Positions 4,125 through 59,135 of a stretch of 64,000 bases of DNA are shown here, one piece after another; the first letter of the stretch is position 1; each line of letters begins with the position of its first letter. The notes under the pieces were generated by a model that was not told where the DNA came from, ran no database searches, and saw only the letters and a program-made list of their open reading frames with translations. Location of the stretch: assembly GCF_004010195.1 (NCBI RefSeq), contig NC_057718.1, positions 54,655,864 to 54,719,863 on the forward strand, written 5' to 3'. Position numbers and translations under genes: made by a program. Source of the DNA: Chiloscyllium plagiosum (taxonomy: Eukaryota).

Positions 4125-4338
4125 AGTAGACAAAGAGGCTGGAAGAACACAGCAAGTCAGGCAGCATCAGGAGATGGAGAAGTCGACGTTTCGGGTTGAG
4201 ACCCTTAATCAGGAAGAAGGATCTCGACCCAAAACGTTGATTTCTCCACCTCCTGATGCTGCCTGGCTTGCTGTGTTCTTCCAGCCACCTGTGTGTCTAC
4301 TTTGGATTCTAGCATCTGCAGTATTTTTGTTGCTATAC
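4125..4338. mobile_element. Fold-back (palindromic) PLE pseudo-LTR element, family B, degenerate hammerhead motifs
   Basis: 4125-~4210 is the reverse complement of ~4213-4301, then a short tail; flanked by caatttcctg (4115-4124) / caattccctg (4339-4348). Confidence 0.75.
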
Positions 4339-4935
4339 CAATTCCCTGCCCACCTTTCTTACAAACTATCAAAATATTCCAAATGTTATTCAGTGGCTAC
4401 GAATTACTTGAGCATTCAGAGGGTGTAAAAAAAAGATGAATTTCAAAGTTTTCCTTCACATATAATTAATATCAATTTCTTTGTAAATTGCTGAATACAT
4501 TGATTCAATATATTTTGTTTATAAAAATCCTCCAGAAACTGAAAATGCACACAGAAGCATACAATGTTTATAAAGAAGTTGTAACTGTATTTAAAATTGT
4601 CTCAAATATTTGCAAAAAACACGATATGAACAATGTCATTTCACAATTAAGATTATATACAGGCTTTCTCGTGCATAGAATTAACATGCAGAATACTACT
4701 CAGTTTCTTACGCTATAATGTTTCACACTTTGCATCAGAATTTAATACATATAACAAAGCACCAAATACTCCAGGCAGTTATATTTTAGAATTACTTAAT
4801 TGGTAGTTAATTTATTTAACACACCAATTTAGAACACAATTTTGATTTCACATCAAAATCAAAGCAAGGGCAGATGTTAAATTCAAGTGTATGCATGTGT
4901 CACACAGTTTAGATAAATAATTTGCTTTTACGTAC

Positions 4936-5040
4936 ACAAGCCGTGGCAATGCATGTTCCCCAGTCACTGTAGGTCTCTACTGTGATGTTGGACAAGGCAG
5001 TTCTCAAAAACGGACAGAGAATTTTCCATAGCTGTTCCAC
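4936..5040 (-). CDS. PSME4: PSME4 coding exon 24/24 (105 nt)
   Basis: ttttag|[35 protein letters not shown]|gtacgt. Confidence 0.96.
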
Positions 5041-5255
5041 CTAAAATCACCAAAAAAAACCTATCAACCTCTTTCCAGGGGTTGAACATAATATAAAATT
5101 CAAAAGTCCATTTGTCAACAAAAGGAATACTGCAAATTAAGACTGGATGGCATAAAATTAAATTTCAATTTTCCATCATAGCTTAATTTGCACAAACAAA
5201 TTGCTGAAGTATTATTTGCTAATTACAAAGTCTATTTTTGTTGAATACAATAACT

Positions 5256-5511
5256 CCATCAACAAACACATCAACCTGAACCCAATATACCAACCACTAC
5301 AGCGGACAGCTGAAACTGACAACCGGAAGCGGCAGGGACAGACCACTATAAACACCGGAGGAAACATTAAAGAAGCGCTTCGCAGGAGGCTCCCAAGCAC
5401 TGATGATGTCGCCTAGCCAGGGGACGAAACGTTTGCAACAAAAACTTCCAGCTCGGCGAACAGAACCACAACAACGAGCACCCGAGCTACAAATCTTTGC
5501 ACAAACTTTGA
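5256..5511 (+). mobile_element. PLE 3' fragment (family C) with hammerhead motif
   Basis: Encodes ..SINKHINLNPIYQPLQRT (resembles PLE GIY-YIG C-terminus); hammerhead at 5397-5436; direct repeat acaataact at 5247-5255 and 5512-5520. Confidence 0.75.
5397..5436 (+). ncRNA. Minimal type-I hammerhead ribozyme motif
   Basis: GCA-CTGATGA-T-GTCgCCTagccAGGgGAC-GAA-ACGT-T-TGC: stem I GCA/TGC, intact core, palindromic stem III, GUU site. Confidence 0.7.
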
Positions 5512-5759
5512 ACAATAACTTGTTTTGGAATTTGCATCCAAAAATAGAGATAGAGATAGAGATAGATAGATTTTTGGTTTTCAATTTCGTGCATGTGATT
5601 TTTTTTTTAAAACGGACAGAAACTATTTCATTTTAAATGACCAAATAAACTGTCTCTTGAGACAATTGCATATCTTAACTGAGATAACTGAAGTATTCAT
5701 TAAGTTGAGCTTTTATAATACAAGGAAAGAGAGACTAGAAGCAGATTCACTTCAGAAGA

Positions 5760-6135
5760 AAAGATGAGGGGATATCTAATTGAAACTTACACAGTACTGA
5801 ATGGCTTGGACAGAGTAGATGTTGGGAAGATGTTGCCATTGGTAGGACAGAATATAGGACCAGAGGGCATAGCCTGAGAGTAAAGGGAAAACCTTTTAGA
5901 ATGAAGATAAGGAGAAATGTCTTCAGCCAGAGAGTGGTGAATCTATGGAATTCATTGCCAGAAAAAGCTGTGGAGGCCAGGTCATTGAGTATATTTAAGA
6001 CGGAGATAGATAGGTTCTTGACTGTCAAGGGGATCGAGGCGAAAATGGTGATGAAGTACTTATCAGCCATGATTGAATGGCAGAGCAGACTCTATGGGCT
6101 GAATGGCCTAATTTCTGCTCCTATGTCTTATTGCT
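5760..6135 (+). mobile_element. CR1-like LINE 3' fragment
   Basis: Peptide RRNVFSQRVVNLWNSLPEKAVEARSLSIFKTEIDRFL plus CR1 tail. Confidence 0.85.
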
Positions 6136-7088
6136 TTACTAATACCAGATGCGATGTTTAACAACCTAAAATGTTTGAAAAAAAAATGGAGAAAACCTTG
6201 CAGCTTTTTCCTTTCAGAATTCAGTGAGAACCCTCTGAGATAGTCTTCAGAGGCACAGACACAGGCTAACAGAGAATCTCATCTGGTGAATATGCACAAA
6301 CTCTCAAAGTAAACACTTGTGGTCTTGTCAGTCAATAAGAAATTAAATAGCAAAGATAGGGTTTATACTTCAAAGAGAAAGGATTGCTGACTATGATGAG
6401 ATCCTTACAAATTATCCCATATGTAGTCATTTTTGTAACATACTAATGCTGTTTGCGTGAATATATTCAGTCACTGACCACCATGGTAACCAAAGTGCAA
6501 AATAAAATTGGTGGTCCATCGAGTAAAGTTGCACTCTGGAATCTGACTTGTCCGGTATTAATTCAGCTGGGATCATAAGACTGCGTGTTAAATGCACAAA
6601 TTATTTTCGACAGAAATGGAATTCAGTTAGCTCAATACCTTGTATAATTAATGGGGGAACATATTTATTGGAATAGTCAAGCTTGTTGAGAAACAAAATA
6701 AATTTGCAAGTACAATAGAATCTTATTATATCAATGCTTTTGGTTGTCTCAAATAATTGAAGGCAACTAAATTACTATAAATCATTTAATCCAAAATTCA
6801 GGCAAATCACATTAGCATGGAACATTTTCTATAAGCAATAAACACTATACTTGTTTTTCTTTTCAAGCAGCCAGAGCTAATTTGTACAATTAAAAATGAA
6901 GCTATCATAACACTGACAGTCAAAATTAATCAAATATCCATTTAAAATGGATATGAATACAACTAACAATAAAAATGTAAGTCAGGGAATTAAGTTGGAT
7001 CGTTATTAAAAGTGTAAATTCTGCACAAATATAAATATTTATCTGACCTCAAATTTAACTGTCTAGAGTATAAAACCAATGGTATTAC

Positions 7089-7241
7089 CTCTTCATACCT
7101 CCAGTGTTTACAACCTCGGATTAGTCCAGCAATGATTTCAGCGACACATCGCTGTGCACTTTCATGAGAATCTGAGACAAGATGTTCCATATGTGGCTTT
7201 AACACTGATAAAAAGGCCATATCAAAGTTTCTGAACAAACC
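7089..7241 (-). CDS. PSME4: PSME4 coding exon 23/24 (153 nt)
   Basis: tgacag|[51 protein letters not shown]|gtaata. Confidence 0.97.
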
Positions 7242-7769
7242 CTGTCATGGAAGAAATTAACAAATTTATTCAAAACATGATGTTGAACTTCAAATTTATT
7301 TCAAGTTTAGTTTGCTTTATTTTACATGAAAATCACGATCTAAAGATTAGAAAATGTAATCACAGTCCTTATAATCAAACTTGAAAACACCAAAACACTG
7401 AAGAAATGATTTTGCTTCATGCAGTTTTCATTTCTCTTCCTGCCCCCTGACTCGGCCACAAGCTGTAAACATACAGTTTGACCCCAAGCATAAATCCACA
7501 GTGCGAGTGTCCATTAAAACTGAGAATTCAGCTCAGAAGCTGCTGGTTGAAAATCTAAAAATTTCCTGTTACTGCACTGAATAAAATAATACTTGCAATT
7601 AGTTCAGCTGATTTCCTTTTCAATTACCTTTCTGCTTGGATCCAGAAAAACTCCATGTAGACAAACTCATATAATTATGTCTTAAGACTTAGATAATGGA
7701 CTTTCAGCAATCATAAGTATTTTCCTTTGCATTGCATATGACCTCAATCAGTGATAAGCCAAACGTTTA

Positions 7770-8450: not shown

Positions 8451-8474
8451 AATGGGCAATTTAAAGTACAAATA

Positions 8475-13509: not shown

Positions 13510-13645
13510 ATACAGAGCTGGAAATGTGTTGCTGGAAAAGCGCAGCAGGTCAGGCAGCATCCAGGGAACAGGNNNNNNNNNNNNNNNNNNNNNNNNNNNN
13601 NNNNNNNNNNNNNNNNNNNNNNNNNNNNNNNNNNNNNNNNTGGTG
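13510..13645 (-). mobile_element. PLE pseudo-LTR fragment (family B) running into an assembly gap (N 13573-13640)
   Basis: gctggaaaagcgcagcaggtcaggcagcatccagggaacagg is the reverse complement of the 57618-57744 element body. Confidence 0.7.
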
Positions 13646-14079: not shown

Positions 14080-14170
14080 GCTGATAAAGGGCTTAAGCCT
14101 GAAATATCAAATCTCCTGTTCCTGGATGCTGCCTGACCAACTGTGCTTTTCCAGCGCTAAACTTTTTAGA
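14080..14170 (+). mobile_element. Degenerate PLE pseudo-LTR (family B)
   Basis: ctgataaagggcttaagcctgaaatatc..ctcctgttcctggatgctgcctgacc; decayed copy of the 57618 element. Confidence 0.65.
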
Positions 14171-14309
14171 CAGTTTAATGATGTACATTATATGCATGAG
14201 CAATGCTTCTAATAACAGAATATTTTGACCCAATTCGCTGGTCTTGAAAATATTTCTAATTGCTTAAATATTGGAATTACAAATCACTCGTCATTTGTTC
14301 TGTTAATCA

Positions 14310-22268: not shown

Positions 22269-22627
22269 AATTCTAAAATGTAGAATCCCGACACAGATGG
22301 GTGGTTGAGTGGACAAAACATATATCAGGAAACACATTCCAATAGCATCAGTTCACAGGCTTCAATGAGGTGTTCCTTTCTCTTCCCAAGCAAAACCATC
22401 TGCTCTCATACCCTCCTTTCAGATTTTCAGTTCTTGTTAAGGAGGCAGAGAACTTACACATTAATTGTTCAGTTTCAGGCTTTGGTTAGATGCATCAGCT
22501 GATAGCAAATGGTGGGAGAGAACAACTGACCATCTCTACGTGTGAAAGTCTTTGCTGCAGAGATATATAGAGTCAAGTCCTATTTCTTCCAGTCTGAAGA
22601 CTCACTGTATTATTCATACACACACTG

Positions 22628-22697
22628 AGGATATCACCGAGACGGGACGAAACGTCTGCAACACAAATTCCCAGCTCTGCGAACAGAACCACAACAA
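22628..22697 (+). mobile_element. ~70-bp PLE remnant (family C) consisting almost only of the hammerhead motif
   Basis: Homologous to 5400-5475; flanked by direct repeat catacacacactg (22615-22627, 22698-22710). Confidence 0.72.
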
Positions 22698-24376: not shown

Positions 24377-24479
24377 GCACCTCTGGTCACGATTCGGAGA
24401 TGCTGGTGTTGGACTGGGGTGTACAAAGTTAAAAATCACACAACACCAGGTTATAGTCCAACAGGTTTAATTGGAAGCA

Positions 24480-24514
24480 CACTAGCTTTCGGAGCGACGC
24501 TCCTTCATCAGGTG
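24480..24514 (-). ncRNA. Minimal type-I hammerhead ribozyme motif in PLE pseudo-LTR
   Basis: CAC-CTGATGA-A-GGAGC gtc GCTCC-GAA-AGCT-A-GTG on the minus strand. Confidence 0.68.
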
Positions 24515-24789
24515 ATTGTGGAGGGCTCGATCGTAACAGAATTTATAGCAAAAATTTGCAGTGTGATGTAACTGAAATTATACATAGAAGAATTGATTGT
24601 CTGTTAAGCCTTTCATCTGTTAGAATACAGTGATAGTTTCACTTCTTTCATGTGTAAATCACAAAACCCTTTTTTTAAAAAAGTTGCATTCTCGGGTTAG
24701 CTGTTAACAATGGTGATAGCTAGACAATATGTTGAAGATGTTAGCCCCCTGTGTTCTCTGTCTATGACCTGATGTTTAGATTGATTCTA

Positions 24790-26279
24790 TGTGAGAATCT
24801 CTCTGGCTATGTGGAAGGCATCTTGAAACCTATTGTACAGGGGATCCCCAGCTTCTGTCGCGACACTACGGATTTCTTACAGAAACTCAGCACCCATGGA
24901 CCAGTCGAACCAGGAACGTTCCTCGTCACAATGGATGTTTCCGCACTCTACACCAACATCCCCCACAATGATGGCATTGCGGCAACAGCCTCAGCACTCA
25001 ACACCAACAACTGCCAGTCTCCAAACACCATCCTACAACTCATCCGCTTTATCCTCGATCATAACGTCTTCACCTTTGACAAACAATTCTTCATCCAGAC
25101 ACACGGAACAGCCATGGGGACCAAATTTGCACCCCAATATGCCAACATTTTTATGCACAGGTTCGAACAAGATTTCTGATCTATGCAGGATCTCCAACCG
25201 ACATTGTACACCAGGTACATTGATGACATTTTCTTCCTCTGGACCCATGGCGAGGAGTCACTGATAAAACTACACAGTGACATCAACAATTTTCATCCCA
25301 CCATCAAACTCACCATGGACTACTCTCGACTGTCTGTCTCATTCTTGGACACTTGCGTCTCCATCAAGGACGGATACCTCAGCACCACAGACTACCGCAA
25401 ACCCACAGACAACCTCACAATGCTACACTTCTCCAGCTTCCACCCAAAACATATTAAAACAGCCATTCCCTATGGACAAGCCCTACGCATACACCGGATC
25501 TGCTCAGATAAGGAGGAACGTGACGGACACCTGGAAGTACTCAAGGATGCCCTCACAAGAACGGGGTACAATGTTCAACTCATCAACCACCAGTTCCGAC
25601 GTGCCACAGCAAGGAACCGTAATGACCTCCTCAGGAGGCAGACACGGGCTGCAATTGACAGGGTACCCTTCGTTGTTCAGTACTTCCCAGGGGCTGAAAA
25701 ATTACGCCATGTTCTTCGTGACCTGCAACACATTATCAATGAAGATGAGCACCTCACCAAGACCTTCCCCACACCTCCACCACTTGCCTTTAAACAACCG
25801 CCAAACCTCAAACAGATCATTGTACGTAGCAAACTGCCAGGCTCTCAGGACAACTCCATACAACCCTGTCACGGTGGACGCTGCAAAACGTGTCAGATTG
25901 TGGACATAGATACCACTATTACGCGTGGGAACACCTCCCACCGTGTACATGGCAGGTACTCATGTGACTCAGCCAACATTGTCTATCTTATACGTTGCAG
26001 GCAGGGATGCCCAGAGGCATGGTACATTGGGGAAACTGAGCAAAGGCTACGACAACGGATGAATGGGCACTGCACAACAATCAGGAGGGTTCCCTCCCAG
26101 TTGGGGAACACTTCAGTGGTCCAGGACATTCAGCCTCGGACCTTCGGGTGACCATCTTCCAAGGTGGACTTCGGGACAGGCAGCAGAGGAAAGTGGCTGA
26201 GCAGAAGCTGATAGCTAAGTTCGGTACCTATAGGGAGGGCCTCAACCGGGACCTTGGGTTCATGTCACATTACAGGTGA
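24790..26279 (+). pseudogene. PLE reverse transcriptase / GIY-YIG endonuclease ORF, disrupted
   Basis: LVTMDVSALYTNIP, QTHGTAMGTKFAPQYANIFM, RYIDDIF, PCHGGRCKTC linker, VYLIRC..WYIGETEQRLRQRMNGH; in-frame TGA 25177-25179, frameshift near 26085, end ..GLNRDLGFMSHYR*. Confidence 0.92.
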
Positions 26280-27188
26280 TCACCATTGCACTACACACAC
26301 ATACACGGACACAGATACACACAGACGCGCACACAGACCCCCACACACACCCTTATAGACACACAGACTCCCACACATGCACCCCCTCACAGACTTAAGA
26401 CACTCTGCACTCACTACACACACACACACACACATTCTCACACTCACAACCCCCACCCCAGACAGACACACACACACAGACATACAAAGGCCCACATGCA
26501 CACATATATATTGTGTGTGGTGAATTGTTTTGGTNNNNNNNNNNNGAATTTTTTTTGGTACTTTCAGAGTTACATTGCACTTTGCTCAAAAACCACATAG
26601 ATTCATGTCGGACTCTAAGCAAAAAAACTGCATGAATTTATGTAAAACTCTGTTATTTCACTTTTTAGATTGGAATCAATCTAAATATCAGGTCATAGAC
26701 AGAGAATACAGGGGGCTAACACCTTCAACATATTGTCTAGTTATCACCATTGTTAACAGCTAACCCGAGAAAGCAATTTTAAAAAAAAAAGGGTTTTGTG
26801 ATTTACACATGAAAGTAGTGAAACTATCACTGTATTCTAACAGATGAAAGGCTTAACAGACAATCAATTCTTCTATGTATAATTTCAGTTACATCACACT
26901 GCAAATTTTTGCTATAAATTCTGTGTTACGATCGAGCCCTCCACAATCACCTGATGGAGTGTCGCTCCGAAAGCTAGTGTGCTTCCAATTAAACCTGTTG
27001 GACTATAACCTGGTGTTGTGTGATTTTTAACCTCTGGTCACAATGGTCAACAGGGGCCTTATAAGCAACAATGGAGTAGGAGCATTAGGGAAATGGTCAT
27101 TAGCACATTGCAGGCCACATAGGTGGAAATTGTTTCATATTAACATTGTTTACCAATGTTAAGTGAATACATCAACACAAATTTATTA

Positions 27189-27709: not shown

Positions 27710-28498
27710 CTGAACAGATGAGCTACAGATTAATTACTGAATAACCTTTTTAAATCACAAGGAAATTAACAATAATATTCTGTTTAAGTTCAAAATAAGG
27801 AGCAGTTTTTATGTAATGGGCAATGTCCCTGACATAGTTTTCCCATTTTCTTTGCACATTCATAAATTAAAATTTGGCATGTGAAATCAACAGAAATTGT
27901 AAATCAAGTTGCATCTTAACATCTGAAAGAAATTCCTCTTTCCTAAACCCCAAATGACTTGACATGAAATCACATGATTATAGATTCTAATTAAAAAGGC
28001 CAGATTTTATTCTTGCACAACCCTTCCCTTAGTAAGCTCTTACAACCAGAAAGTTTGATGGAAATCCAATTTTTTGTTTGACAGAAATCTAGAGCAGTAA
28101 AGTTGTCATCTAAAAATAGCAGCAAGAAAGACTTGAACCCCAAAGATTGTGTCTGCATGTGCTTTCACTTTCCTGGTTCCATCTTGTTGTTACTGACTCT
28201 CCCTTCGATCTGAAAGCAGCTGAGCATTGACCCAACTCCTACTTCTCCCGTCTTTCCAAAATAAGTAGCCTCCAAGCATACAGGAGAGAAATTACAGTCT
28301 GTGTCATTAACTTTAAACAGTGTAGACCATGCTAAAGTCCTCCAACTGGCCTCCACTATCAACTCCTAGAAGTCGACGCAGCATGAAGAGGAGAGAAGCT
28401 TGACTTCATGCTCAAATGTTGAGCATTTTCTTACATTCAAATGAGAGGAAAAAATATTCCCAGAAATTTGCCTGATGAGAGCATCAATAATTACTTAC

Positions 28499-28708
28499 TC
28501 CAAAATCTAGGCCGATGGTTTCATACTGTCGATGTATCTTCTCTGCAAGGTCATCAAATAAACGAACTATGGAAGGTTTCTCCAAAAACATTGCTTTGCT
28601 GAGTCCTGAGGAGACTATTGCTGGCCATGTAGCAACAATGCAGTCCCAGTCATGAAGATTGGCCAGGCAGACTCCATTGTGATTACCAAGAAGACAATAC
28701 AAAGCACC
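28499..28708 (-). CDS. PSME4: PSME4 coding exon 15/24 (210 nt)
   Basis: aaccag|[70 protein letters not shown]|gtaagt. Confidence 0.97.
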
Positions 28709-28917
28709 CTGGTTTGAAATATATACAGAAGAAATATTTTAGTCTCAAATGTACTGGTCTGTCATTGCCATTGGGTACAAAAGTACACCACTGACATATA
28801 CAAAGATAACATCAAGTCAGATGGGACATTTGCTAACAGAAGAACCATACACAAATTGATACAATAGGACTGATACTGGTACTATGATAATACTTCAAGA
28901 CACATCAAAATACTTAC

Positions 28918-29204: not shown

Positions 29205-32200
29205 CCTAATCGCTTTAGCTGCTTGGGAGGATTTAAACTAGTAAGGTGGGAGTGGGGGTGGGCGGGACCCAGGGAAATAGTGAGGAAAGAGGGAAAGAGA
29301 TCAATCTGTGACTGGTTACAGTTGAGAATAGAAGCAAGTCAAACAAACCGTCAGAGCAGGCAGGAAAAGGTCGGACTAATAAATTAAACTGCATTTATTT
29401 CAAGGCAAGGGGCCTAACAGGGAAGGCAGATGAACTCAGGGCATGGTTAGGAACATGGGACTGGGATATCATAGCAATTACAGAAACATGGCTCAGGATT
29501 GGACAGGACTGGCAGCTTAATGTTCCAGGATACAAATGCTACAGGAATGATAGAAAAGGAGGCAAGAGAGGAAGAGGGGTGGCATTTTTGATAACGGATA
29601 GCATTACAGCTGTACTGAGGGAGGATAGTCCCAGAAATATATCCAGGGAAGTTATTTGGGTGGAACTGAGAAATAAGAAAGGGATGATCACCTTATTGGG
29701 ATTGTATTATAGACCCCCTAATAGTCAGAGGGAAATTGAGAAACAAACTTGTAAGGTGATCTCAGCTAACTGTAAGAATAATAGGGTGGTTATGGTAGGG
29801 GATTTTAACTTTCCAAACATAGTGTTAAGGATTTAGATTAGATTAGATTACATTACAGTGTGGAAACAGGCCCTTCGGCCCAACAAGTCCACACCGACCC
29901 GCCGAAGCGAAACCCACCCATACCCCTACATTTACCCCTTACCTAACACTACGGGCAATTTAGCATGGCCAATTCACCTGACCCTGCACATCTTTTGGAC
30001 TGTGGGAGGAAACCGGAGCACCCGGAGGAAACCCACGCAGACACGGGGAGAACGTGCAAACTCCACACAGTCAGTCGCCTGAGGCGGGAATTGAACCCGG
30101 GTCTCAGGCGCTGTGAGGCAGCAGTGAGAGGAATTTGTTAAGTGTGCACAAGACAATTTTCTGATTCAGTACGTGGATGTACCTACTAGAAATGGTGCAA
30201 AACTTGACTTACTCTTGGGAAATAAGGCAAGGCAGGTGACTGAGGTGTCAGTGGGGGAGCACTTGGGGCCAGCGACCATAATTCTATTAGATTTAAAATA
30301 GTGATGGGAAAGGATAGACCAGATCTAAAAGTTGAAGTTCTAAATTGGAGAAAGGCCAATTTTGATGGTATTAGGCAAGAACGTTCGAAAGCTGATTGGG
30401 GGCAGATGTTCGCAGGTAAAGGGAAGGCTGGAAAATGGGTAGCCTCCAGAAATGAGATAACGAGAACCCAGAGAAAGTATATTCCTGTTAGGGTGAAAGG
30501 AAAGGCTGATAGGTGTAGGGAATGCTGGATGACTAAAGAAATTGAGGGTTTGGTTAAGAAAAAGAAGGAAGCATATGTAAGGTATAGACAGGATAGATCA
30601 AGTGAATCCTTAGAAGAGTATAAAGGAAGTAGAAGTATACTTAAGAGGGAAATCAGGAGGGCAAAAAGGGGACATGAGATAGCTTTGGTAAATACAATTA
30701 AGGAGAATCCAAAGAGTTTTTACAAATACATTAAGGACAAAAGGGTAACTAGGGACAGAATAGGGCCCCTCAAAGATCAGCAAAGCGGCCTTTGTGTGGA
30801 GCTGCAGAAAATGGGGGAGATACTAAATGAGTACTTTGCATCAGTATTTACTGTGGAAAAGGATAAGGAAAATATAGACTGTAGGGAAATAGATGGTGAC
30901 ATGTTGCAAAATGCTCAGATTACAGAGGAGGAAGTGCTAAATGTCTTGAAATGCATAAAAATGGATAAATCCTCAGGACGTGATCAGGTGTACCCTAGAA
31001 CTCTATAGGAAGCTAGAGAAGTGATTGCTGGGCCTCTTGCTGAGATATTTGTATCATCGATAGTCACAGGTGAGGTGCTGGAAGACTGGAGGTTGGCAAA
31101 CGTGGTGCCACTGTTTATAAAGGGTGGTAAGGACAAGCCAGGGAACTATAGACTGGTGAGCCTGATGTCAGTGGTGGGCAAGTTGGTGGAGGGAATCCTG
31201 AGGGACAGGATGTATTTGGAAAGGCAAGGACTGATTAGGGATAGTCAACATGGCATTATGCATGGGAAATCATTTCTCACAAACTTGACTGAGGTTTTTG
31301 AGGAAGTAACAAATGGGATTGATGAGGGCAGAGTGGTATACGTGATCTACATGGACATCAGTAAGGCGTTCAACAAGGTTCCCCATGGGAGACTGATTAG
31401 CAAAGTTAGATCTCACGGAATACAGGGAGAACTAGCCATTTGGATACAGAACTGGCTCACAGGAAGAAGACAAAGGGTGGTGGTGGTGGAGGGTTGTTTT
31501 TCAGACTGGAGGCCTGTGACCAGTGGAGTGCCACAAGGATCGGTGCTGGGTTCTCTACTTTTGTCATTTACATAAATGATTTGAATGCGTGCATGAGAGG
31601 TACAGTTAGTAAGTTTGCAGATGACACCAAAATTGGAGGTGTAGTGGACAGCGAAGAGGGTTACCTCAGATTACAATAGGGCCTTGACCAGATGGGCCAA
31701 TGGGCTGAGAAGTGGCAGATGGAGTTTAATTCAGATAAAAGCGAGATGCTGCATTTTGGGAAAGCAAATCTTATCAGGACTTATACACTTAATGGTAAGG
31801 TTCTAGGGAGTGTTGCTGAACAAAGAGACCTTGGAGTGCAGATTCATAGCTCCTTGAAAGTGGAGTCGCAGGTAGATAGNNNNNNNNNNNNNGCTATAGG
31901 GAGAGGCTGAACAGGCTGGGACTGTTTTCCCTGGAGCGTCAGAGGCTGAGGGGTGACCTTATAGAGGTTTACAAAATTATGAGGGGCATGGATAGGGTAA
32001 ATAGGCAAAGTTTTTTCCCTGGGGTCGGGGAGTCCAGAACTAGAGGGCTTAGGGTGAGAGGAGAAAAATATAAGAGACCTATGGGGCAACGTTTTCACGC
32101 AGAGGGTGGTATGAGTATGGAATGAGTTGCCGGAGGATGTGGTGGAGGCTGGTACAATTGCAACATTTAAGAGGCATTTGGATGGGTATATGAATAGAAA

Positions 32201-40449: not shown

Positions 40450-40757
40450 GTTAAAAATCACACAACACCAGGTTATAGTGCAACAGGTTTTATTGGAAGC
40501 ACACTAGCTTTCAGAGCGTCGCTCCTTCATCAGGTGATAGCGGAGAGCTCAATCCTAACAGAATTTATAGCAAAAATTTACAGTGTGATGTAACTGAAAT
40601 TATAGGTGTTAGGATTGAGCCCTCCACTATCACCTGTTGAAGGAGCGACGCTCCGAAAGCGAGTGCGCTTCCAATTAAACCTGTTGGACTATAACCTGGT
40701 GTTGTGTGATTTTTAAACTTTGTACACTCTAGTCCAACACAGACATCTCCAAATCAG
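40450..40757. mobile_element. Fold-back element made of two inverted family-A PLE pseudo-LTR ends, no ORF
   Basis: Both arms match the termini of 24391-27031; tail on the right; TSD caataccaa (40441-40449, 40758-40766). Confidence 0.88.
40502..40536 (-). ncRNA. Minimal type-I hammerhead ribozyme motif
   Basis: CAC-CTGATGA-A-GGAGC gac GCTCT-GAA-AGCT-A-GTG on the minus strand (one G-U pair in stem II). Confidence 0.65.
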
Positions 40758-42206: not shown

Positions 42207-43241
42207 TAACAGAAGAATACAAGTTGCTGCAACACAAATCTATGCTGAACCTATAAACTTAGTACCAAAGTAGACTTATGATACAACATAGTACATTCAA
42301 TCACGACATATTAAAGTTCACAATGGCGAAAAGAAAGCATTTAGTGGGCGGCACTGTGGCACAGTGGTTAGCACTGCTGCCTCACAGCGCCTGAGACCCG
42401 GGTTCAATTCCCGCCTCAGGCGACTGACTGTGTGGAGTTTGCACGTTCTCCCCGTGTCTGCGTGGGTTTCTTCCGGGTGCTCCGGTTTCCCCCACAGTCC
42501 AAAGATGTGCAGGTCAGGTGAGTTGGCCATGCTAAATTGCCCGTAGTGTTAGGTAAGGGGTAAATGTAGGGGTATGGGTGGGTTGCGCTTCGGCGGGTCG
42601 GTGTGGACTTGTTGGGCCGATGTGGACTTGTTGGGCCGAAGGGCCTGTTTCCACACTGTAATGTAATCTAATTTCTAATCTAATCTAACATGTTAATTTA
42701 GTTATTTTGGCTCATCCAAGCGAAAGCACAATGTTAACATAACATTGTTTATGTATGGTCGAAGACAGACACTTACTGTTGCATGTTAGAATACCAATAA
42801 AAATATCCGGAATTAAGAAACTAGGAAACCACTGTTGATTGTTAGAAAGACCCATCTGGTCCATTGATGTTCTTTAACTCCACAGCAATGTGATTACTCA
42901 GAGGGCAGTTAAGAGTCAATTTGGGATTTATTGCTGGCTAAGACAGTGATGCCAACATCTCATGACTTAATAAAAAGTCCATATGGATCATCTCAAAAGC
43001 AAAGGTCATATTCTAATGGTTTACTCTCATTTACATGGCTTGACTGCAGGAAAATGTTTAAAGAAGCTTTGAAGTAAAACAGCATTAACAGGTATCTGTT
43101 CTGCATTTAGCTTTCTTTTCGCCATTGTGAACTTTAATATGTAGTGATTGAATGTACTATGTTGTATCATAAGTCTATTTTGGTACTAAGTTTATAGGTT
43201 CAGCATAGATTTGTGTTGCAGCAACTTGTATTCTTCTGTTA
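42207..43241. repeat. Inverted repeat, 132-bp arms (42207-42338 / 43110-43241)
   Basis: Direct comparison: 2 mismatches in 132 bp. Confidence 0.95.
42344..42688 (+). mobile_element. HE1-type V-SINE, young, full length, internal 19-bp tandem duplication
   Basis: A-box TGGCACAGTGG, B-box GGTTCAATTCC, V-domain; tgtggacttgttgggccga twice (42602-42639). Confidence 0.92.
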
Positions 43242-43934: not shown

Positions 43935-44772
43935 AATACAAGACATAGGTATAGGAGTAGACCACATGGACCATCAAGCCTATTGTCATTCAACATGATA
44001 ATGTCTGATCCTGGGCTTCATTTCCACTTTATTGCCTGTTTCCCATATCTTTTGATTCTATGAAACATCAAAAATGTGTCCATTCCAGTATTAAAACGTA
44101 CACAACAATGTAGATTACCGAATCCTCTGGGGCACAGAATTCCAAAACCTCAACCTTTAGAGTGAACAAATCATTCATCTTAATCCTAAATAATCGTCTG
44201 TAATCTGAAGGCTGTGCCTCCCTGTTGGATTTCCCAGCAGAAGTTCTTTGAGCATGCACCATGTAAAGCCCCTCCAGATTCTTGCAGAGGTTGTTCTGCT
44301 ATATTGCAACAGTTGCGCTCCTCTGCAACCTTGAGCTATTAGAAAATAGCGCTATGGAAAAATGCTATAGAAAAATCATACTGTAGGAGATCGGTAATAT
44401 AAAATCACTATAGCCGTTCACTAGAAAGTTCATGTTATCCAAACAGCATCCACATTTCGATAATGCTGTGATGAAGAGTCATCTAGACTCGAAACTCACT
44501 CTCCATGGATGCTGCCTGACCCGCTATGATCTCTAGTATTTGTTGTTCATTCCAGAATCTTGTACATTTCAACACAAGATCACAACTCATTCTTTTGAAT
44601 ATCAGAAAATATAGACATAATTCTCTCAGCCTCTGATCACAGAGAAACACCGTCAACCCAGGGCTTCATTTAGTGAACCTTCACTGTATGCCTCCAATGC
44701 AAGTATATTTTTCTTAAATGTGGAAACCAAAAGTGCTCACAATATTCCTGATGTGATCTCACCAAAAATCTT
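43935..44772 (-). mobile_element. Old CR1-like 3' fragments with nested small elements
   Basis: Tail ataggagtagaccacatggaccatcaagcc..; peptide LVRSHQEYCEHFWFPHLRK. Confidence 0.65.
44466..44548 (+). mobile_element. Degenerate PLE pseudo-LTR (family B-like)
   Basis: gtgatgaagagtcatctagactcgaaac..ggatgctgcctgacccgct. Confidence 0.6.
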
Positions 44773-46265
44773 TGGACAAGGACATGGAAGATATAGAATG
44801 TAGGGAAATAGATGGTGACATGTTGCAAAATGCCCAGATTACAGAGGAGGAAGTGCTGGACGTCTTGAAACACAAAAGTAGATAAATCCCCATGATGTGA
44901 TCAGGTGGACCCGAGAACTCTGTGGGAAGCTAGGAAAGTGATTGCTGGGCCTCTTACTGTGATATTTGTATCATCGATAGTCACAGGTGAGGTGCCAGAA
45001 GACTGGAGGTTGGCTAACTTGGTGCCACTGTTTAAGAAAGGTGGTAAGGACAAGTCAAGGAACTACAGATCAGTGAGCCTGATGTCGGTGGTGGGCAAGT
45101 TGGTGGAGGGAATCCTGAGGGACAGGATGAACATGTATTTGGAAAGGCAAAGACTGATTAGGGATAGTCAACATGGCTGTGTGTGTGGGAAATCATGTCT
45201 CACAAACTTGATTGAGTTTTTTGAAGAAACAAAGAGGATTGATGAGGCCAGAGCAGTAGATGTGATCTATATGGACTTCAGTAAGGTGTTTGACAAAGTT
45301 CCCCATGGGAGACTGGTTAGCAAGGTTAGATCTCATAGAATACAGGGACAACTAGCCATTTGGATACAGAACTGGCTCAAAGGTAGAAAACAGTGGGTGG
45401 TGGTGGAGGGTTGTTTTTCAGACTGGAGGCCTGTGACCAGTGGAGTGTCACAATGATCTGTCCTGGGTCCACTACCTCTTGTCATTTATATATATGATTT
45501 GGATGTGAGCATAAGAGGTATAGTTAGTAAGTTTGCACATGACACCAAAATTGGAGGCGTAGTGGACAGCAAAGAAGGTTACCTCAGATTACAATGGGAT
45601 CTTGATCAGATGGGCCAATGGGCTGAGAAGTAGCAGATGGAGTTTAATTTAGATAAATGCAAGGCGCTGCATTTTGAGAAAGCAAACCTTAGCAGGACTA
45701 ATACACTTAATGATCAGGTCCTAGGGAGTGTTGCTGAACAAAGAGACCTTGGAGTGCAGGTTCACAGATCTTCGAAAGTAGAGTATCAGGTAGATAGGAT
45801 AGTGAAGGAGGCATTTGGTATGTTTTCCTTTATTGGTCAGAGCATTGAGTACAAGAGTTGGGAGGTCATGTTGCGGTTGTACAGGACATTGGTTAGGCCA
45901 CTGTTGGAATATTGCATGCAATTCTGGTCTCCTTCCTATCGGAAAGATGTTGTGAAACTTGAAAGGGTTCAGAAAGGATTTACAAGGATGTTGCCAGGGT
46001 TGGATGATGAGAGCTATGGGGAGAGTTTGAATACGCTGGGGCTGTTTTCCCTGAAGCGTCAAAAGCTCAGGCGTGACCTTATGGAGGTTTACAAAATCAA
46101 AATCATGAGGGGCATGAATAGGATAAAAAAACCAAAGTCTTTTCCCTGGGGTGGGGGAGTCCAGAACTAGAGGGCATAGGTTTAAGGGTGAGAGGGGAAG
46201 TTATAAAAGAGACCTAAGGGGCAATCTTTTCACTCAGAGGGTGGTACGTGTATGGAATGAGCTTC
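44773..46265 (+). mobile_element. CR1-like LINE RT region, truncated at both ends
   Basis: ORFs 44905-45456 and 45637-46170 carry RT motifs; closely similar to 30860-32130. Confidence 0.93.
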
Positions 46266-46949
46266 CTGCACATGTACATCCAAATCTCTAACACTTCTAA
46301 GTAACTTCACATTTCCCTACCTTATAACATATCTGCTGTCTTGTTGTCCAGTCACTTAATCTGACTGCGTCTCATTGCAGCCTCTGTGTGCCGTGCCAAA
46401 ATCCCACTTTTTCACCTAACTTTGTATCATCAGCATGTGGATACATTTCTTTACACTTAAACAGTAATGCAGATTGTAAGTAGCTGAGGCCTAACCAATG
46501 ACCTGATATGCCATTAATCACTGCCTGCCAACTTTAAAATATCCAGTTTAGTTCACTCTCTACTTACTCTCTGATAATATGTTACCTACAACTCCATGAA
46601 CTCTTCTTGCTGACTGTTTGTGCTGCACCATATCAAATGCCTTTTGTGTAGATACAAACACTGCATCAGCTGACTCCCTTTATTGAGCAGCCCTGTTCTC
46701 AAAAGACTCCCACAAATTTGTCAATCACATTTTTCTTCAATAAAACCAAGTTGACTTATTCTAATCATGCTGTTTTTCTCAGAACATAGTTAAAACTTCC
46801 TTAATAGATTCAGCTGAGTCCAGTTAAAAAATTTAATATTTACTAATACAAATTAAAATAGAAAGAGCAGGCAATGTGATGTAGCTGCAGCAGGTAGCAA
46901 CTGGTGGATGCCAATAAAATTCAGAGTGATGACATTTGCTCCTGGGATG

Positions 46950-54077: not shown

Positions 54078-54817
54078 AAGCTGAGAAGTGGCAGATGGAG
54101 TTTACTTCAGGTAAATGCGAGGTGCTGCATTTTGGGAAAGCAAATCTTTGCAGGACTTATGGATGCTGCCTGACCTGCTGTGCTGTTCCAGCAATAAAGT
54201 TTCAACTTTAATCTCCAGCATCTGCAGACTCACTTTCTCCTACAGGAGTTGAAGAGTCATGTTGCGGCTGTACAGGAAATTGGTTAGGCCTCTGTTAGAA
54301 TATTGCGTGCAATTCTGGTCTCCTTCCTACCGGAAAGATGTTGTGAAACTTGAAAGGGTTCAGAAAAGACTGACAAGGATGTTGCCAGGGTTGGAGGATT
54401 TGAGCTATAGGGAGAGGCTGAACAGGCTGAGGCTGTTTCCTCTGGAGCATTGGAGGCTGAGGGGTGACCTTATAATTTACAAAATTATGAGGGGCATGGA
54501 TAGGGTAAATAGGCAAAGTCTTTTTCTTGGGTTGGGGAGTCCAGAACTAGAGGGCATTGGTTTAGGGTGAAGGGGGAAAAAATATAAAAGAGACCTAAGG
54601 GGCAATGCAGAAGGTGGTACGTGTATGGAATGAGCTGCTAGAGGAAGTTGTGGAGGCTGCAACATTTAAGAGGCATTTGGATGGGTATATGAATAGGAAG
54701 GGTTCGGAGGGACATGGGCCGGGTCCTGGCAGGTGGGACTAGATTGGGTTGGGATATCTGGTCAGCATGGATGGGTTGGACCGAAGGGTCTGTTCCCATC
54801 CTGTACATCTCTATGAG
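54078..54817 (+). mobile_element. CR1-like LINE 3' part with a family-B PLE tail fragment at ~54159-54240
   Basis: ORF LVRPLLEYCVQFWSPSYRKDVVKLERVQKR; inserted ggatgctgcctgacctgctgtgctgttccagcaataaagtttcaac. Confidence 0.88.
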
Positions 54818-54849
54818 GGGCATCTGTAGGGTAAATAGACAGGGTCAAG

Positions 54850-55750
54850 ATTAGAGTAGTGCTGGAAAAGCACACCAGGTCAGGAAGCATCTGAGCAGGA
54901 AAATCAACGTTTCAGGTAAAAGCCTGGGAGCCTCAGGGGTGATGAGATAAATGGGAGGGGGGTTGGACTGGGGAGAAGGTGCAATAGGTGAGGTGGATGG
55001 AGGTGGGGGTGAAGGTGATAGGTCGGTCAGATAGGTGGAGCAGATAGGTGGGAAGGAAGGTTGACAGGTGGGACAGGTCATGCGGACTGTGCTCAGCTGG
55101 AAGTTGGAACTGGGGTAAGGTGGGTGGAGTGGAAATGAGCAAACTGGTGAAGTCTACATTGATGCCATGGGATTGAAGGGTCCTGAGACGGAAAATGAGA
55201 CATTGTTCCTCCAGGCGTCAGGTGGTAAGGAAGTGACGGTGGAGGCTGCCCTGGACCTGCATGTCCTCGGCAGAGTGGGAAGGGGGAGTTGTAGTGTTTG
55301 GCCATGGGGCAGTGGGGTTCATTGGTATGGGTGTCCTGGAGATGTTCTCTGAAGCGCTCTGCCAGAAGTCACACTGTCTCCCCAATGTAGAGGAGACGAC
55401 ATTGGGAGCAACGGATACAATAAATGACGTGTGGAAGTGCAGGTGAAACTTCGGTGGATGTGAGCGGGGAGGGGTGGGTGCAGGTTTTGCAATTCCTGTG
55501 GTGGCAGGGGAAGGTACCAGGAGGGGAAGGTGGGTTGTTTGGGGTAGGCGGGGATGGACCTGACCAGGTAGTCGCAGAGGGAACAGTCTTTGCAGAAAGC
55601 GAACAGGGGTGGGGAGGAAAATATATCCCTGGTGGTGGGATCCGTTTGGAGGTGGCCGAAATGTCGGTGGATGATGCGATTTATGCAGAGGTTGGTGGGG
55701 TGGAAGGTGAGGACCAGGGGTGGTTGGTGGGGGTGGAAGGTGAGGACCAG
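54850..55750 (-). mobile_element. PLE 3' fragment (family B, Neptune-like): Cys linker, GIY-YIG, pseudo-LTR
   Basis: Minus-strand peptides PGTFPCHHRNCKTCTH, VIYCIRCSQCRLLYIGET, RLEEQCLIFRLRTLQSHGINVDFTS; terminus matches family-B small elements. Confidence 0.85.
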
Positions 55751-56085
55751 GTCTTTCCCTTGGGGTGGTGGGAATCCAGAACTAGAGTGACACTTGGTCT
55801 CATCTTTACGGAGAGAAGGGAAAGATTTAAAAGGGACCTAAGGGATACTTTTAATGCACAGGATGGTGCATGACTGGATTGAGCTGCCAAAGGAAGTGGA
55901 GGCGGCTGGTACAATTACAACATTTAAAAAAGGCATCTGGATGGGTGTATGAATAGGAAGGGTTTAGAGGAATATGGGCCAAGTGCAGGCAAATGGGACT
56001 AGATTAATTTAGGATATCTGGTCAGTATGGATGAGTTGGACTGAAGGGTCTGTTTGTGTTATACATCTCTATGACTCTGACTCTA
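55750..56085 (+). mobile_element. CR1-like 3' tail, continuation of 54818-54848 across the PLE insertion
   Basis: aatccagaactagag.., aggcggctggtacaattacaacatttaaaa.., tail atctctatgactctgactct. Confidence 0.82.
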
Positions 56086-56284
56086 GTCCAAGTAACTTCC
56101 ATGCTAACTACAAAATCCTATATTACTTTGCCTAGTTTGGAATAACTTTAGCAAAGGAATGTGAAAAGTCCATTTTTTTAAGTATTATTTTACTGTAGCC
56201 ATCCATCTCTTTCTCTCCCACCTAACCCTTCCATTCCCAAGCTGCTCTCAAAAGAATGTCATTGTCACGTTTGTGACAACAAAC

Positions 56285-56442
56285 CTTGACATTTCTATAT
56301 CTCCACCGGCATATTGCTGCAGCTTGCGCAGTTCTGGCTGTAGAAAGTTGTCCAACAGATAGTATGCAAAGTTGATCTCCTCGGGAGAAGCCACATGCCA
56401 CTGAATTCCTAACTTCCACAGGTTTCCAGGTCTTCCCCAATC
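56285..56442 (-). CDS. PSME4: PSME4 coding exon 6/24 (158 nt)
   Basis: ttgtag|[52 protein letters not shown]+AG|gtttgt. Confidence 0.96.
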
Positions 56443-56634
56443 CTACAAACATGTTTTGGTGAAAGGGAGAGATGGAGTGATAAAATGTACATTGTGTAAA
56501 TTCAATGACTCAGTAAAGACATTCAAATTGATCAATACAATACATATATGCAATGTTGTATTTTGCTGTGGTATAATCAAAAATAAAACTAGATGGATAC
56601 ATCTTTATCATATTTTTAAATTATGAATGTATAC

Positions 56635-56850
56635 CTTAATTGGCAAGTACTCTGTGAAAGCTTTATCAAAACCACCTGGCACACTGCAGTACTCTGTCGG
56701 ATAGATTAGTGTAGTTGAACGAAGTAGATGATGCAACAGGTTTCCAGCGAGAATATATCCCTGCTTACATTTCAGGTGCAATGTTCTTTGTAGAATCTTT
56801 ATAAGTTGGTCCTTGTAAGGTAGCAACTTATCACCATCTACACGTGTTAT
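56635..56850 (-). CDS. PSME4: PSME4 coding exon 5/24 (216 nt)
   Basis: tttcag|[72 protein letters not shown]|gtatac. Confidence 0.97.
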
Positions 56851-57288
56851 CTGAAAAAAGTAACCGTCTATCTTGAAGCCATGTAAATTCAAAATGACTT
56901 TTAATTTTCCAAATTAAAGTTAAGAACATTTAACTAATATTTATGCTTTTGACTATGTTCTCTTCCATTTTGGTTCCAAGTTACCCAGATAGCTAGTCTT
57001 GATATACTCATCACATGATAGAACATCTGGTAATACTAAATTATAACACATAATGGGAGCCCAAGTTCAGTTCCTACATTTTCGGAACTCGACTTTATGA
57101 AAGGGAGTTAACAAAAAAGTCCAAACAAAGTGTCAGATGAGGGGCTCTAAAACAGAACCAACCGAAAGAGAGAAGCAAAAAAAAAATTTTTTAATACTGT
57201 CATGAATGTAACACAGGACAATTACCATTATCTTCTTTGAGATACGTTTCTTCACCTCTACAGGTTATGATTCATTTTTAATATTTAC

Positions 57289-57356
57289 CTCGGATAACAA
57301 TTGGAGATTCCAAAGTAGTTCCTTATCTAACTCCTGTTCCTGGAACACATCATCAT
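57289..57356 (-). CDS. PSME4: PSME4 coding exon 4/24 (68 nt)
   Basis: ttgtag|(N)DDVFQEQELDKELLWNLQLLSE|gtaaat. Confidence 0.95.
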
Positions 57357-57616
57357 CTACAAAGAACAAAAATGTGTTACATGTTTCATATTTTATAAAG
57401 CCCCCTCCCAAACAACAGATTTACATTCAATCAAACTCTCAAGGCAGATGAGAAAAGCAATGTGGTAAGATTTAGACCATCTTTCCAGGAAAAAAAGCCC
57501 TTTAATTTCTCCAACAGATGGTCCAAGTTCTTAAGATTTTGTTCTGCTTCCATTATCATTGCAAGGAGGTGCAGTTCATTTTTCTCATTTCTAGAATGCA
57601 TGTATGTCTTCACACC

Positions 57617-57652
57617 ATTCCTGAAGAAGGGCCTGTGCCCGAAACGTCGAAT
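57617..57652 (+). ncRNA. Minimal type-I hammerhead ribozyme motif, canonical GUC site
   Basis: ATTC-CTGAAGA-A-GGGC ctgt GCCC-GAA-ACGT-C-GAAT; perfect 4-bp stem I and stem II; predicted cleavage after C57648. Confidence 0.8.
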
Positions 57653-57744
57653 CTCCTGTTCCCTGGATGCTGCCTGACCTGCTGTGCTGTTCCAGCAATA
57701 AAGTTTCAACTTTGATCTCCAGCATCTGCAGACCTCACTTTCTC
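57618..57744 (+). mobile_element. 127-bp solo PLE pseudo-LTR (family B) beginning with a hammerhead
   Basis: TSD cttcacacca (57608-57617, 57745-57754). Confidence 0.85.
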
Positions 57745-58069
57745 CTTCACACCACATATCTCAATAGCGATTTGTGTCTGACTACTTCTAGCAGTCCTGT
57801 TAGCCTGTCAATGCCCTCTTAGCCTTCTAGGATATTGTAAGCTGTTATGAGACCTCAACTTATGCCAGATAATTTTTCGGTTATCTTTTTACTCCCACGT
57901 TCAGATTTCAGGTGAAAAGCAACAGTCTCACCAGACACTACCAAAAGAGTACACATATCTTTACACTCTAGAAAACAGCCATGCACCCTTATCTTTTGTT
58001 TTCTAGCCTCAAACCAATTTTGTGTCATATTTTCCCTAATTCAACAGTCCAAACTAGATCTTTGCTAGA

Positions 58070-58406
58070 GACGGCACGATGGCACAGTGGTTAGCACTGC
58101 TGCCTCACAGCGCCAGAGACCCGGGTTCAATTCCCGCCTCAGGCAACTGTCTGTGTGGAGTTTGCACGTTCTCCCCGTGTCTGAGTGGGTTTCCTCCGGG
58201 TGCTTCGGTTTCCTCCCACGGTCCAAAAGTGTGCAGGTTAGATGCATTGGCCATGCTAAAATTGCCCGCAGTGTTAGGTGAAGGGGTAAGTGTAGGGGAA
58301 TGGGTCTGGGTGGGTTGCTCTTCGGAGGATCAGTGTGGACTTGTTGGGCCGAAGGGCCTGCATCCACACTGTAAGTGATCTAATCTAATCTAACTAATCT
58401 AATCTA
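58070..58406 (+). mobile_element. HE1-type V-SINE, full length
   Basis: A/B boxes, V-domain, (TCTAA)n tail. Confidence 0.9.
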
Positions 58407-58929
58407 AAGCTCTCTCTGATTGCTTGGAAAAGCATTTAAAAGCTAAAGAACCAAACCCACACCACTTTTTCACATGTCCTTTCTGTACATTTTTCTCAGA
58501 AATTTGATTCGTTTAGGCACAGCCTTCCATTTATGAAACAATTTTGAAAAACTTGGATCAATTCAGATACCTGATATCAACAGACAAGGTATAATCATAT
58601 TTACACGTATGTAAACATATTTGGTATCACATCCTTCCATTCTGAAATTTGTTGCCGTAATATATTAGCCACTCCAGTTTCTAATCATGTGTTGCTGCCC
58701 AGGGTATATGGTCGCACAAACTTTACAGACCAGACAGTTAGAAGAAACAAAATTTGTGCGCACAATTTAATGGACATTACCTAACATTGTGGCATACTTA
58801 TTTTAGAAAGAGAGACACAGCTGACGATTTATTCTGATATCACATGCTTATTAGAGGACACCTCACCTGGTGTTTAAGCACCTGTCAACTTTTTTTAAAA
58901 AAAAAAGAAAAACGTCTTTAAATCATGTG

Positions 58930-59135
58930 GATGCTAGAAAACAGAAAATGCTGGGAAAACTCAGCAGGTCTGGCAGCATCTGTGATGAAAAAGCAGAGTT
59001 AATATTTCGGGTGCAGTGATGCTTCTTCAGAAAACTTTAAGGAGAACCATTGGAACAGAAATGTTAACTATGCTTTCTCTCTAAAGATGCTGCTAGACCT
59101 GCTGAATTTTCCCAGCAATTTCTGATTTTGTTGCT
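58930..59135. mobile_element. Old fold-back PLE pseudo-LTR element
   Basis: cagaaaatgctgggaaaactcagcaggtctggcagcatc versus gatgctgctagacctgctgaattttcccagcaatttctg; decayed CTGAAGA..GAAA at the centre. Confidence 0.7.

What the first reader, a model, noticed from the sequence alone, without database searches (positions are those of the whole stretch)
4125..59135. A population of hammerhead-ribozyme-bearing mini-retroelements from three PLE families inside one gene
Seen: about a dozen short elements share termini with PLE remnants in this window, and most contain a CTGANGA-N-stemII-GAA-palindrome-H motif in varying states of decay. Three families differ in hammerhead architecture. A has GAA-AGCT-A (24391, 40450). 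B has a short stem II and GAA-ACGT-C/T (57618, 4125, 14080, 44466, 54850, 58930; 13510 and 54159 lack the visible motif). C has a long stem II (5256, 22628). Several have 9-13 bp TSDs and no coding sequence. Established: PLE pseudo-LTRs carry minimal type-I hammerheads with palindromic stem III, thought to act as dimers. Inference: these are either extreme 5' truncations or non-autonomous, retrozyme-like units mobilised in their own right; standard annotation would miss them.
Basis: partly seen in the sequence, partly recalled or inferred. Interest (0 to 1): 0.72.

Follow-up and report, generated by a model that had tools for sequence, protein, structure and literature searches.

The report
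Penelope stubs starting at hammerhead edge
These short repeats are end-pieces of three families of Penelope-type jumping genes that carry an already described tiny hammerhead-ribozyme motif; in two families over half of sampled copies start right at the motif's front edge, likely because they are copies of only the uncut front of the element's RNA rather than a separate mobile element.

Summary
The repeats are real and lie among exons of PSME4. They are Penelope-like (PLE) pseudo-LTR pieces with minimal type I hammerhead motifs whose stems covary between families. Only 3 of the 12 listed sites have an intact motif; 24391, 54850 and 5256 contain coding sequence.

In genome samples, 5' ends pile up at the hammerhead's 5' edge in families B (60 of 100 arms) and A (42 of 78), but not C (1 of 80) and not at the cut site. 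3' ends fall at the two known 'tail' sites, and 31 of 31 head-to-head pairs join one long and one short arm. Short copies share subfamily variants with longer copies, so they form no lineage of their own.

Best reading (0.6): reverse transcription starts inside uncut PLE RNA and runs off a 5' end just before the hammerhead. Elsewhere in the genome, a re-amplified 224-nt tandem unit is retrozyme-like, and five U6 copies joined at the predicted cut suggest occasional cleavage in vivo. This scan reported the hot spot and U6 joins before, on other DNA. A refinement of a known system.

The parts
57617..57744 (+). Family B (Neptune-like) solo pLTR stub, young. Starts at position -4 before hammerhead C3 (57621), intact minimal hammerhead with predicted cut after 57648, ends at the long tail site, 10-bp TSD
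   Evidence: fold gives stems I and II (z -0.45, not better than shuffles)
4125..4330 (.). Older family B head-to-head palindrome; both hammerhead cores damaged; decayed TSD
58930..59133 (.). Older family B head-to-head palindrome; decayed motif on the minus arm (core at 59030); 7-bp TSD
14080..14172 (+). Family B stub starting at the hammerhead edge, core damaged, no TSD found
44466..44552 (+). Old B-like stub with a covaried stem II (GAGTC/GACTC), core damaged
13510..13573 (-). Family B arm cut by an assembly gap; hammerhead region not sequenced
54159..54240 (+). Young family B piece starting downstream of the hammerhead, ending at the long tail site, inside another repeat
54850..55840 (-). 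Older family B 5'-truncated copy with GIY-YIG coding fragments; hammerhead partly deleted; not a mini element
24391..27031 (.). Family A (Neptune-like) 2.64-kb insertion: inverted long arm with intact hammerhead (C3 at 24511, minus), broken RT-EN frame 24787-26280, forward short arm to 27031, TSD
40450..40755 (.). Family A head-to-head palindrome; both arms read past the hammerhead edge; TSD
5256..5511 (+). Family C (Poseidon-like) 5'-truncated copy starting in the ORF end; intact hammerhead (C3 at 5400); long 3' site; 9-bp TSD
22622..22697 (+). Family C stub starting at the hammerhead edge (rare for C), stem II mutated, short 3' site, 13-bp TSD
56611..56913 (-). Reading frame holding a PSME4 (PA200) exon, human residues 681-755
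28487..28738 (-). Reading frame holding a PSME4 exon, residues 1025-1096
6993..7244 (-). Reading frame holding a PSME4 exon, residues 1346-1400

Best explanation
The short elements are pseudo-LTR pieces of three Penelope-like families, and in families A and B most are likely dead-end run-off copies made when reverse transcription starts at one of two internal sites on uncut element RNA and stops at an RNA 5' end predicted to lie 4-8 nt before the hammerhead core. Shown: family identity, two 3' sites about 35 nt apart, the 5' pile-up, TSDs, and long-plus-short pairing. Inferred: the endonuclease nicks both target strands; one or two RT molecules prime at the short and long sites; a single product gives a solo stub with TSD; two products joined at their ends give the head-to-head palindrome; an RT that jumps from the RNA end to another template gives tandem units. 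The source RNA would be any locus that still has the sequence downstream of the tail (full elements or internally deleted tandems). The hammerhead is copied uncut; it likely cuts only occasionally, as the U6 joins suggest. Family C copies are ordinary variable 5' truncations.
For: 5' ends at -10 to +4 of C3: B 60 of 100 arms, A 42 of 78. Against a uniform spread over the stub, binomial p 2e-17 and 2e-9 (arms are not independent). Genome-wide, adding 13 nt upstream of the B hammerhead keeps 4,109 of 11,385 exact matches (36%), and the next 13 nt keep 3,688 of 4,109 (90%). At the predicted cut (+28 in B): 0 of 100 exactly, 3 within 2 nt. 3' ends: B 36 at +87 to +93 and 43 at +125 to +128 of 100; A 30 at +82 to +88 and 35 at +120 to +128 of 78; C also two sites. 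This matches internal initiation at two sites on unprocessed RNA shown in vitro for the anole PLE (PMC11167929, main text read). Close inverted pairs are long plus short in 20 of 20 (B) and 11 of 11 (A). B subfamily variants are shared by edge and read-through copies. Only 372 exact matches to the region just past the tail against 20,827 to the pLTR. Several tandems join tail-extended sequence straight onto the same edge (L148, L155, L163, L165, L079). The outer limit of the pile-up is an A in an initiator-like context in both A (-8) and B (-4) (motif recalled, noticed afterwards). D. virilis Penelope has an internal TATA-less promoter in the pLTR (PMC2377424, passages).
Against: No transcript start was observed. 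The one raw RNA run with reads (718 laid, single-cell polyA, about 2% of the run) showed both strands, 95% of reads running on into other sequence, and no pile-up of molecule ends. Family C has the same two 3' sites and a hammerhead but no pile-up (1 of 80), which the model explains only by assuming a different start or cis preference. The cap signature is inconclusive: G precedes the start A in 9 of 16 versus 31 of 112 elsewhere (p 0.04), but in only 8 of 38 in a wider B set (my count), and inverted junctions confound it. In D. virilis the start lies about 120 nt upstream of the hammerhead (46 nt plus a 75-nt intron that ends at helix I; PMC2377424, PMC4209133), so a start at the edge is not general. 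The in vitro study found no strand difference in start site, unlike the strict long-plus-short pairing here. In A, one loop II variant was seen only in edge copies (6 of 42 versus 0 of 22).
Confidence: 0.6

Rival explanations
1. The edge is set by something other than a transcript start. The RT may release where the folded or protein-bound hammerhead ends, or the element's endonuclease may re-cut the new DNA at an ATT/AAT word just 5' of the core.
For: B has ATT and A has AAT at the edge, and C has neither. The anole PLE endonuclease prefers ATT near its ORF-pLTR junction (PMC11167929). Many 5' junctions overlap the TSD by 2-5 nt, as end-joining would give. No start site was seen.
Against: A structure should stop RT on its 3' side, where RT meets it first (inference). 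C has a longer hammerhead stem and no pile-up. Tandems that join downstream element sequence directly to the edge fit an RNA end followed by a template jump. The ATT preference was measured for a different clade.
Confidence: 0.2
2. The stubs are non-autonomous, retrozyme-like units that are themselves transcribed, self-cleaved and re-inserted.
For: Fixed length, TSDs, near-identical copies on many contigs. A 224-nt internally deleted tandem unit with one junction stands at 40 places on 25 contigs, so non-autonomous re-amplification occurs in family B. Animal retrozymes are proposed to derive from pLTRs (bioRxiv 10.64898/2026.07.22.740005).
Against: Stubs start about 30 nt upstream of the cut, not at it. 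B stubs have no private variants, and mean divergence is like that of read-through copies (1.1% versus 1.6%). Flanks differ at every site and 3' ends alternate between two sites. Stubs lack the post-tail region. No window element is tandem.
Confidence: 0.08
3. All are ordinary random 5' truncations of autonomous PLEs, and the hammerhead is a passenger.
For: True for family C: 69 of 80 arms read past the hammerhead with scattered ends. Also true for window copies 5256, 24391, 40450 and 54850. Single motifs were already called probable truncated PLEs (PMC4209133).
Against: Sharp step in A and B.
Confidence: 0.05

Closest known systems
Minimal hammerheads (min-HHR) in pLTRs of metazoan PLEs (Cervera and De la Pena 2014, PMC4209133; parts 1-2 of 4 read)
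   Same: Type I core, extra base between positions 9 and 10.1, G10.1-C11.1 pair, palindromic stem III, many dispersed single motifs thought to come from truncated PLEs, some opposite-strand pairs.
   Different: The parts read do not map 5' ends or describe a pile-up at the motif's edge, and give no in vivo evidence of cleavage.
Poseidon PLE of Anolis carolinensis, internal initiation (Frangieh et al. 2024, PMC11167929; parts 1-2 of 4 read)
   Same: Two internal start sites that make the 30-40 nt tail; both strands cut and extended; unprocessed RNA is the main template; hammerhead not needed for insertion.
   Different: Here the ORF start lies past the tail in B (L264); the pile-up is in the two Neptune-like families; inverted pairs are always long plus short. 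That paper found no RNA-seq reads beginning or ending at the cut, whereas U6 joins mark it here.
Animal non-LTR retrozymes (Cervera and De la Pena 2020, PMC7229834, passages; Li et al. 2026, bioRxiv 10.64898/2026.07.22.740005, parts 1-3 of 5 read)
   Same: pLTR-derived, hammerhead-bearing, non-coding; the 194-320 nt tandem units found elsewhere in this genome fit.
   Different: Window elements are solo or head-to-head, not tandem; their motifs are minimal, not canonical; unit ends are not the cut site.
Head-to-head pLTRs and solo pLTRs of Adineta vaga Penelope (Arkhipova et al. 2013, PMC3846280; passages and Discussion read)
   Same: Inverted pLTRs, tail at one end, TSDs, microhomology at 5' junctions.
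   Different: Explained there by self-priming on an antisense template, and solo pLTRs by recombination or deletion. Here solo stubs have TSDs and either tail site.
U6/LINE-1 chimeras made by RtcB ligation (Moldovan et al. 2019, PMC6789731; abstract and outline only)
   Same: U6 3' end joined to a retroelement RNA with a 5'-OH, then retrotransposed.
   Different: The partner here is a PLE and the join sits at a predicted ribozyme cut; ligation is inferred, not tested.

Membership tests
EN+ Penelope-like element insertions | RT plus C-terminal GIY-YIG ORF linked to the terminal repeat | tested here: met
   Frames with RT and GIY-YIG-type motifs adjoin A (window 24787-26280), B (L264, L125) and C (L266, L267); motif names recalled, no Pfam scan or tree run
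EN+ Penelope-like element insertions | 30-40 nt optional tail and inverted 5' copy | tested here: met
   Two 3' sites in all three families; 31 of 31 close pairs long plus short
Neptune versus Penelope/Poseidon clade | CX2-5CxxC linker before the endonuclease (absent in Penelope/Poseidon, PMC8557442 passage) | tested here: inconclusive
   CX4CxxC present in A and B, not seen in C; no phylogeny against named references, so labels are '-like'
Minimal type I hammerhead (min-HHR) | Conserved core, extra base after A9, G10.1-C11.1, palindromic stem III | tested here: met
   3 strict matches in the window versus 0 in 200 shuffles; 322 core matches in 1.17 Mb of fetched loci, partly chosen for them
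Minimal type I hammerhead (min-HHR) | Covarying stems I and II | tested here: met
   Stem I TTC/GAA, CAC/GTG, GCA/TGC; stem II GGG/CCC, GGA/TCC, GTC/GAC. Paired in 39 and 66 of 97 distinct types versus shuffle maxima 22 and 43. Covariation is between families, about three independent events; within B, changes sit in loop II
Minimal type I hammerhead (min-HHR) | Self-cleavage (as dimer or protein-assisted) | not testable with these tools
   Indirect only: 5 U6 loci joined at the predicted cut
Non-LTR retrozyme | Tandem units, each with a hammerhead | tested here: not met
   No tandem in the window; met by arrays elsewhere (L265, L361-L390)
Non-LTR retrozyme | Own lineage, independent of the autonomous element | tested here: not met
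   Shared variants between stub and read-through copies; met for the 224-nt junction family
Non-LTR retrozyme | Accumulates as unit-length linear or circular RNA | not testable with these tools
   Only single-cell polyA reads and contigs were on hand

The most novel reading that the evidence does not exclude
Neptune-like PLEs start their RNA at the first strand of the hammerhead, so the most common insertion is an abortive 'strong-stop' copy of the RNA front, made by an RT dimer that primes both target strands at two different sites. The same ribozyme cuts in the germ line often enough to be trapped by U6 ligation. The genome, with roughly a million such arms (46 arms in 164 kb, extrapolated), is then a fossil record of PLE transcript starts, priming sites and ribozyme cuts.
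Probability: 0.4. Interest if true: 0.62.

Novelty: new variant of a known kind. Interest (0 to 1): 0.42.

Why it matters
How PLEs replicate, and what their hammerheads do, is still open. The end statistics give direct predictions: capped starts at -4 (B) and -8 (A), uncut templates, and two-site priming on opposite strands. The U6 joins point to real cleavage in vivo, for which the papers read give no evidence. Seven literature searches (open-licence library only) listed no paper whose title or abstract start reports the edge pile-up or U6-PLE joins; Lunse et al. 2017 and all supplements were not seen. It does not reveal a new class of element, and nothing suggests an effect on PSME4.

Tried and rejected
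Rfam scan: no hammerhead family at E<=10; only weak hairpin-type matches such as microRNA precursors on palindromes. A DNA search with the 3' part of the B stub returned nothing because common words are skipped. The 30 best DNA hits nearly all had ACCA before the motif; this was ranking bias from the query's flank, absent from unbiased samples, and those loci were left out of all end counts. The first family C sample used an anchor past the short 3' site and so missed short arms; it was redone. Folding z-scores of the motifs were not significant (-0.3 to -1.3). No RNA holder was listed; raw reads were uninformative on starts and one run laid no reads. No empty allele of the 57618 insertion appeared in four contig sets; three of them held a filled junction. 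Cap-G test inconclusive. A spliced leader exon was rejected: no shared sequence lies upstream of the edge. One search gave empty tables (script error) and was redone. Lunse et al. 2017 was not held. Sampling limits: exact-match anchors favour young copies; samples are the first matches on contig C1 (all of the first 100 for B, 78 arms for A, 80 arms for C of which 30 strictly consecutive); arms of one pair count twice; A read-through is under-called where subfamilies differ upstream; assembly gaps hide many palindromes.
Full report
Setting. The window is G000:C9:54655864-54719863 of a 3.56-Gb genome. Three reading frames match PSME4/PA200 on the minus strand in gene order, so the repeats are intronic (inferred for the two outermost sites). 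About 42% of the window matches repeats found in other fetched loci.

Observation. Profile scans find 16 pLTR arms in the window, at all 12 listed sites, and 46 in 164 kb. A strict hammerhead descriptor matches at 5400, 24511 and 57621 and never in 200 shuffles; Rfam misses all. The list mixes kinds: solo stubs (57618, 14080, 44466, 22628, 54159), head-to-head palindromes (4125, 40450, 58930), a gap-cut arm (13510), and copies with coding sequence (24391-27031, 54850, 5256).

Families. A and B carry a CX4CxxC linker before the endonuclease and C does not. By the criterion in PMC8557442 (passages), A and B are Neptune-like and C is Poseidon-like; no tree was built. Exact genome-wide matches to one anchor each: B 20,827, A 18,378, C 11,767; the reversed-pattern controls gave 0. 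With a descriptor that demands no pairing, stems I and II pair in 39 and 66 of 97 distinct types, against shuffle maxima of 22 and 43. The covariation is between families; within B, recurring changes sit in loop II. This shows selection on source elements, not on inserted copies.

5' ends. I anchored on sequence downstream of the hammerhead, took the first matches along contig C1, and extended each against a natural read-through copy. Relative to C3, ends at -10 to +4 make up 60 of 100 B arms and 42 of 78 A arms; 24 and 14 end further in; 16 and 22 read through. In C, 1 of 80 ends there and 69 read through. No B arm starts exactly at the predicted cut and 3 lie within 2 nt; 4 A arms could not be resolved because they end at the anchor start. 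Nested exact counts confirm the step genome-wide: 11,385, then 4,109 with 13 more upstream bases, then 3,688 with 13 more.

3' ends and pairs. All three families end at two sites about 35 nt apart, the PLE tail. Every close inverted pair has one long and one short arm: 20 of 20 in B and 11 of 11 in A. Many solo B stubs have TSDs of 9-16 bp, often overlapping the element by a few bases. The anole PLE initiates at two internal sites, needs ORF-start sequence downstream, extends both strands and uses uncut RNA (PMC11167929).

Independence. The B subfamily variants at positions 12, 34, 44, 88 and 103 occur in both edge and read-through copies; the few edge-or-inside-only variants have 3 copies each; A has three edge-only variants, of 3, 4 and 6 copies. 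Sequence just past the tail is rare, 372 exact matches, and most readable ones among 30 such loci are internally deleted tandems. One junction, giving a 224-nt unit, stands at 40 places on 25 contigs; in 14 of 30 loci read it is followed by a 320-nt unit. These are true non-autonomous, retrozyme-like derivatives and plausible source loci for stubs. None is in the window.

Does the ribozyme cut? Following a lead from earlier scan notes, I examined all 48 U6 matches scored (a lower bound; one gave no readable 3' end). Five loci have a pLTR directly after the U6 3' end: L397, L414, L424 (two arms), L430 and L212. The four B-type joins start at the base after C17. Intact copies of the same subfamilies confirm this for L397 and L414; L430 maps by alignment; L424 is inferred. 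The C-type join is at the cut within 2 nt, blurred by a T run. Only A, B and C references were tested. RtcB joins U6 cyclic-phosphate ends to 5'-OH RNAs (PMC6789731, abstract), so ligation to a cleavage product is a reasonable inference.

Mechanism. Shown: end positions, pairing, TSDs, shared variants. Inferred: an RNA 5' end at the edge, run-off, two-strand priming, template jumps. Against: no start site seen in RNA, no pile-up in C, an inconclusive cap-G test, and a more upstream start in D. virilis (PMC2377424). I give run-off 0.6, stall or re-cut 0.2, independent stubs 0.08, random truncation 0.05.

Novelty. Hammerheads in pLTRs, dispersed single motifs, tails and inverted copies are published. 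The edge pile-up, the strict long-plus-short rule and the U6 joins were not found in seven searches of the held library; supplements and Lunse et al. 2017 were not seen and may bear on this. Earlier notes of this scan report the pile-up and the U6 joins on other DNA. I had reached the pile-up reading before seeing them; the U6 and cap-G tests came from them. Verdict: new variant of a known kind, interest 0.42.

Noticed in passing
L124:4485-5906 and L127:4306-5727; also L037, L048, L099, L117: The same non-element sequence plus an inner inverted pLTR pair recurs at several loci (99.8% over 1.4 kb), flanked by a short inverted arm: probably a non-autonomous PLE composite carrying cargo DNA.
   Followed up: partly
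L265:3263-4434: Array of five hammerhead-bearing units (spacings 194, 194, 224, 559 nt) with different junctions: a retrozyme-like tandem probably built by template jumps.
   Followed up: partly
L264 (minus strand, about 6550 to 2580): Near full-length family B element with an assembly gap; its ORF appears to start about 35 nt past the tail and contains a repeated peptide stretch.
   Followed up: partly
L428: A U6 copy has an inverted family B arm on its 5' side, suggesting a template switch rather than ligation.
   Followed up: no
L391-L435: Many U6 copies are followed directly by one recurring tRNA-like or SINE-like repeat head.
   Followed up: no
window 5345-5353 and family C copies: A TATA-like word lies about 50 nt upstream of the family C hammerhead, inside the ORF end; four sampled C arms fold back at a palindrome at -28.
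   Followed up: partly
window 42207-42338 and 43110-43241: 132-nt inverted repeat, 98% complementary, 771 nt apart, which did not match the repeats in other fetched loci; possibly a DNA transposon or MITE.
   Followed up: no
window, many sites (e.g. 30244-31850, 44871-46270): Numerous LINE-like RT fragments (CR1-type by recall) and SINE-like repeats fill the introns.
   Followed up: no
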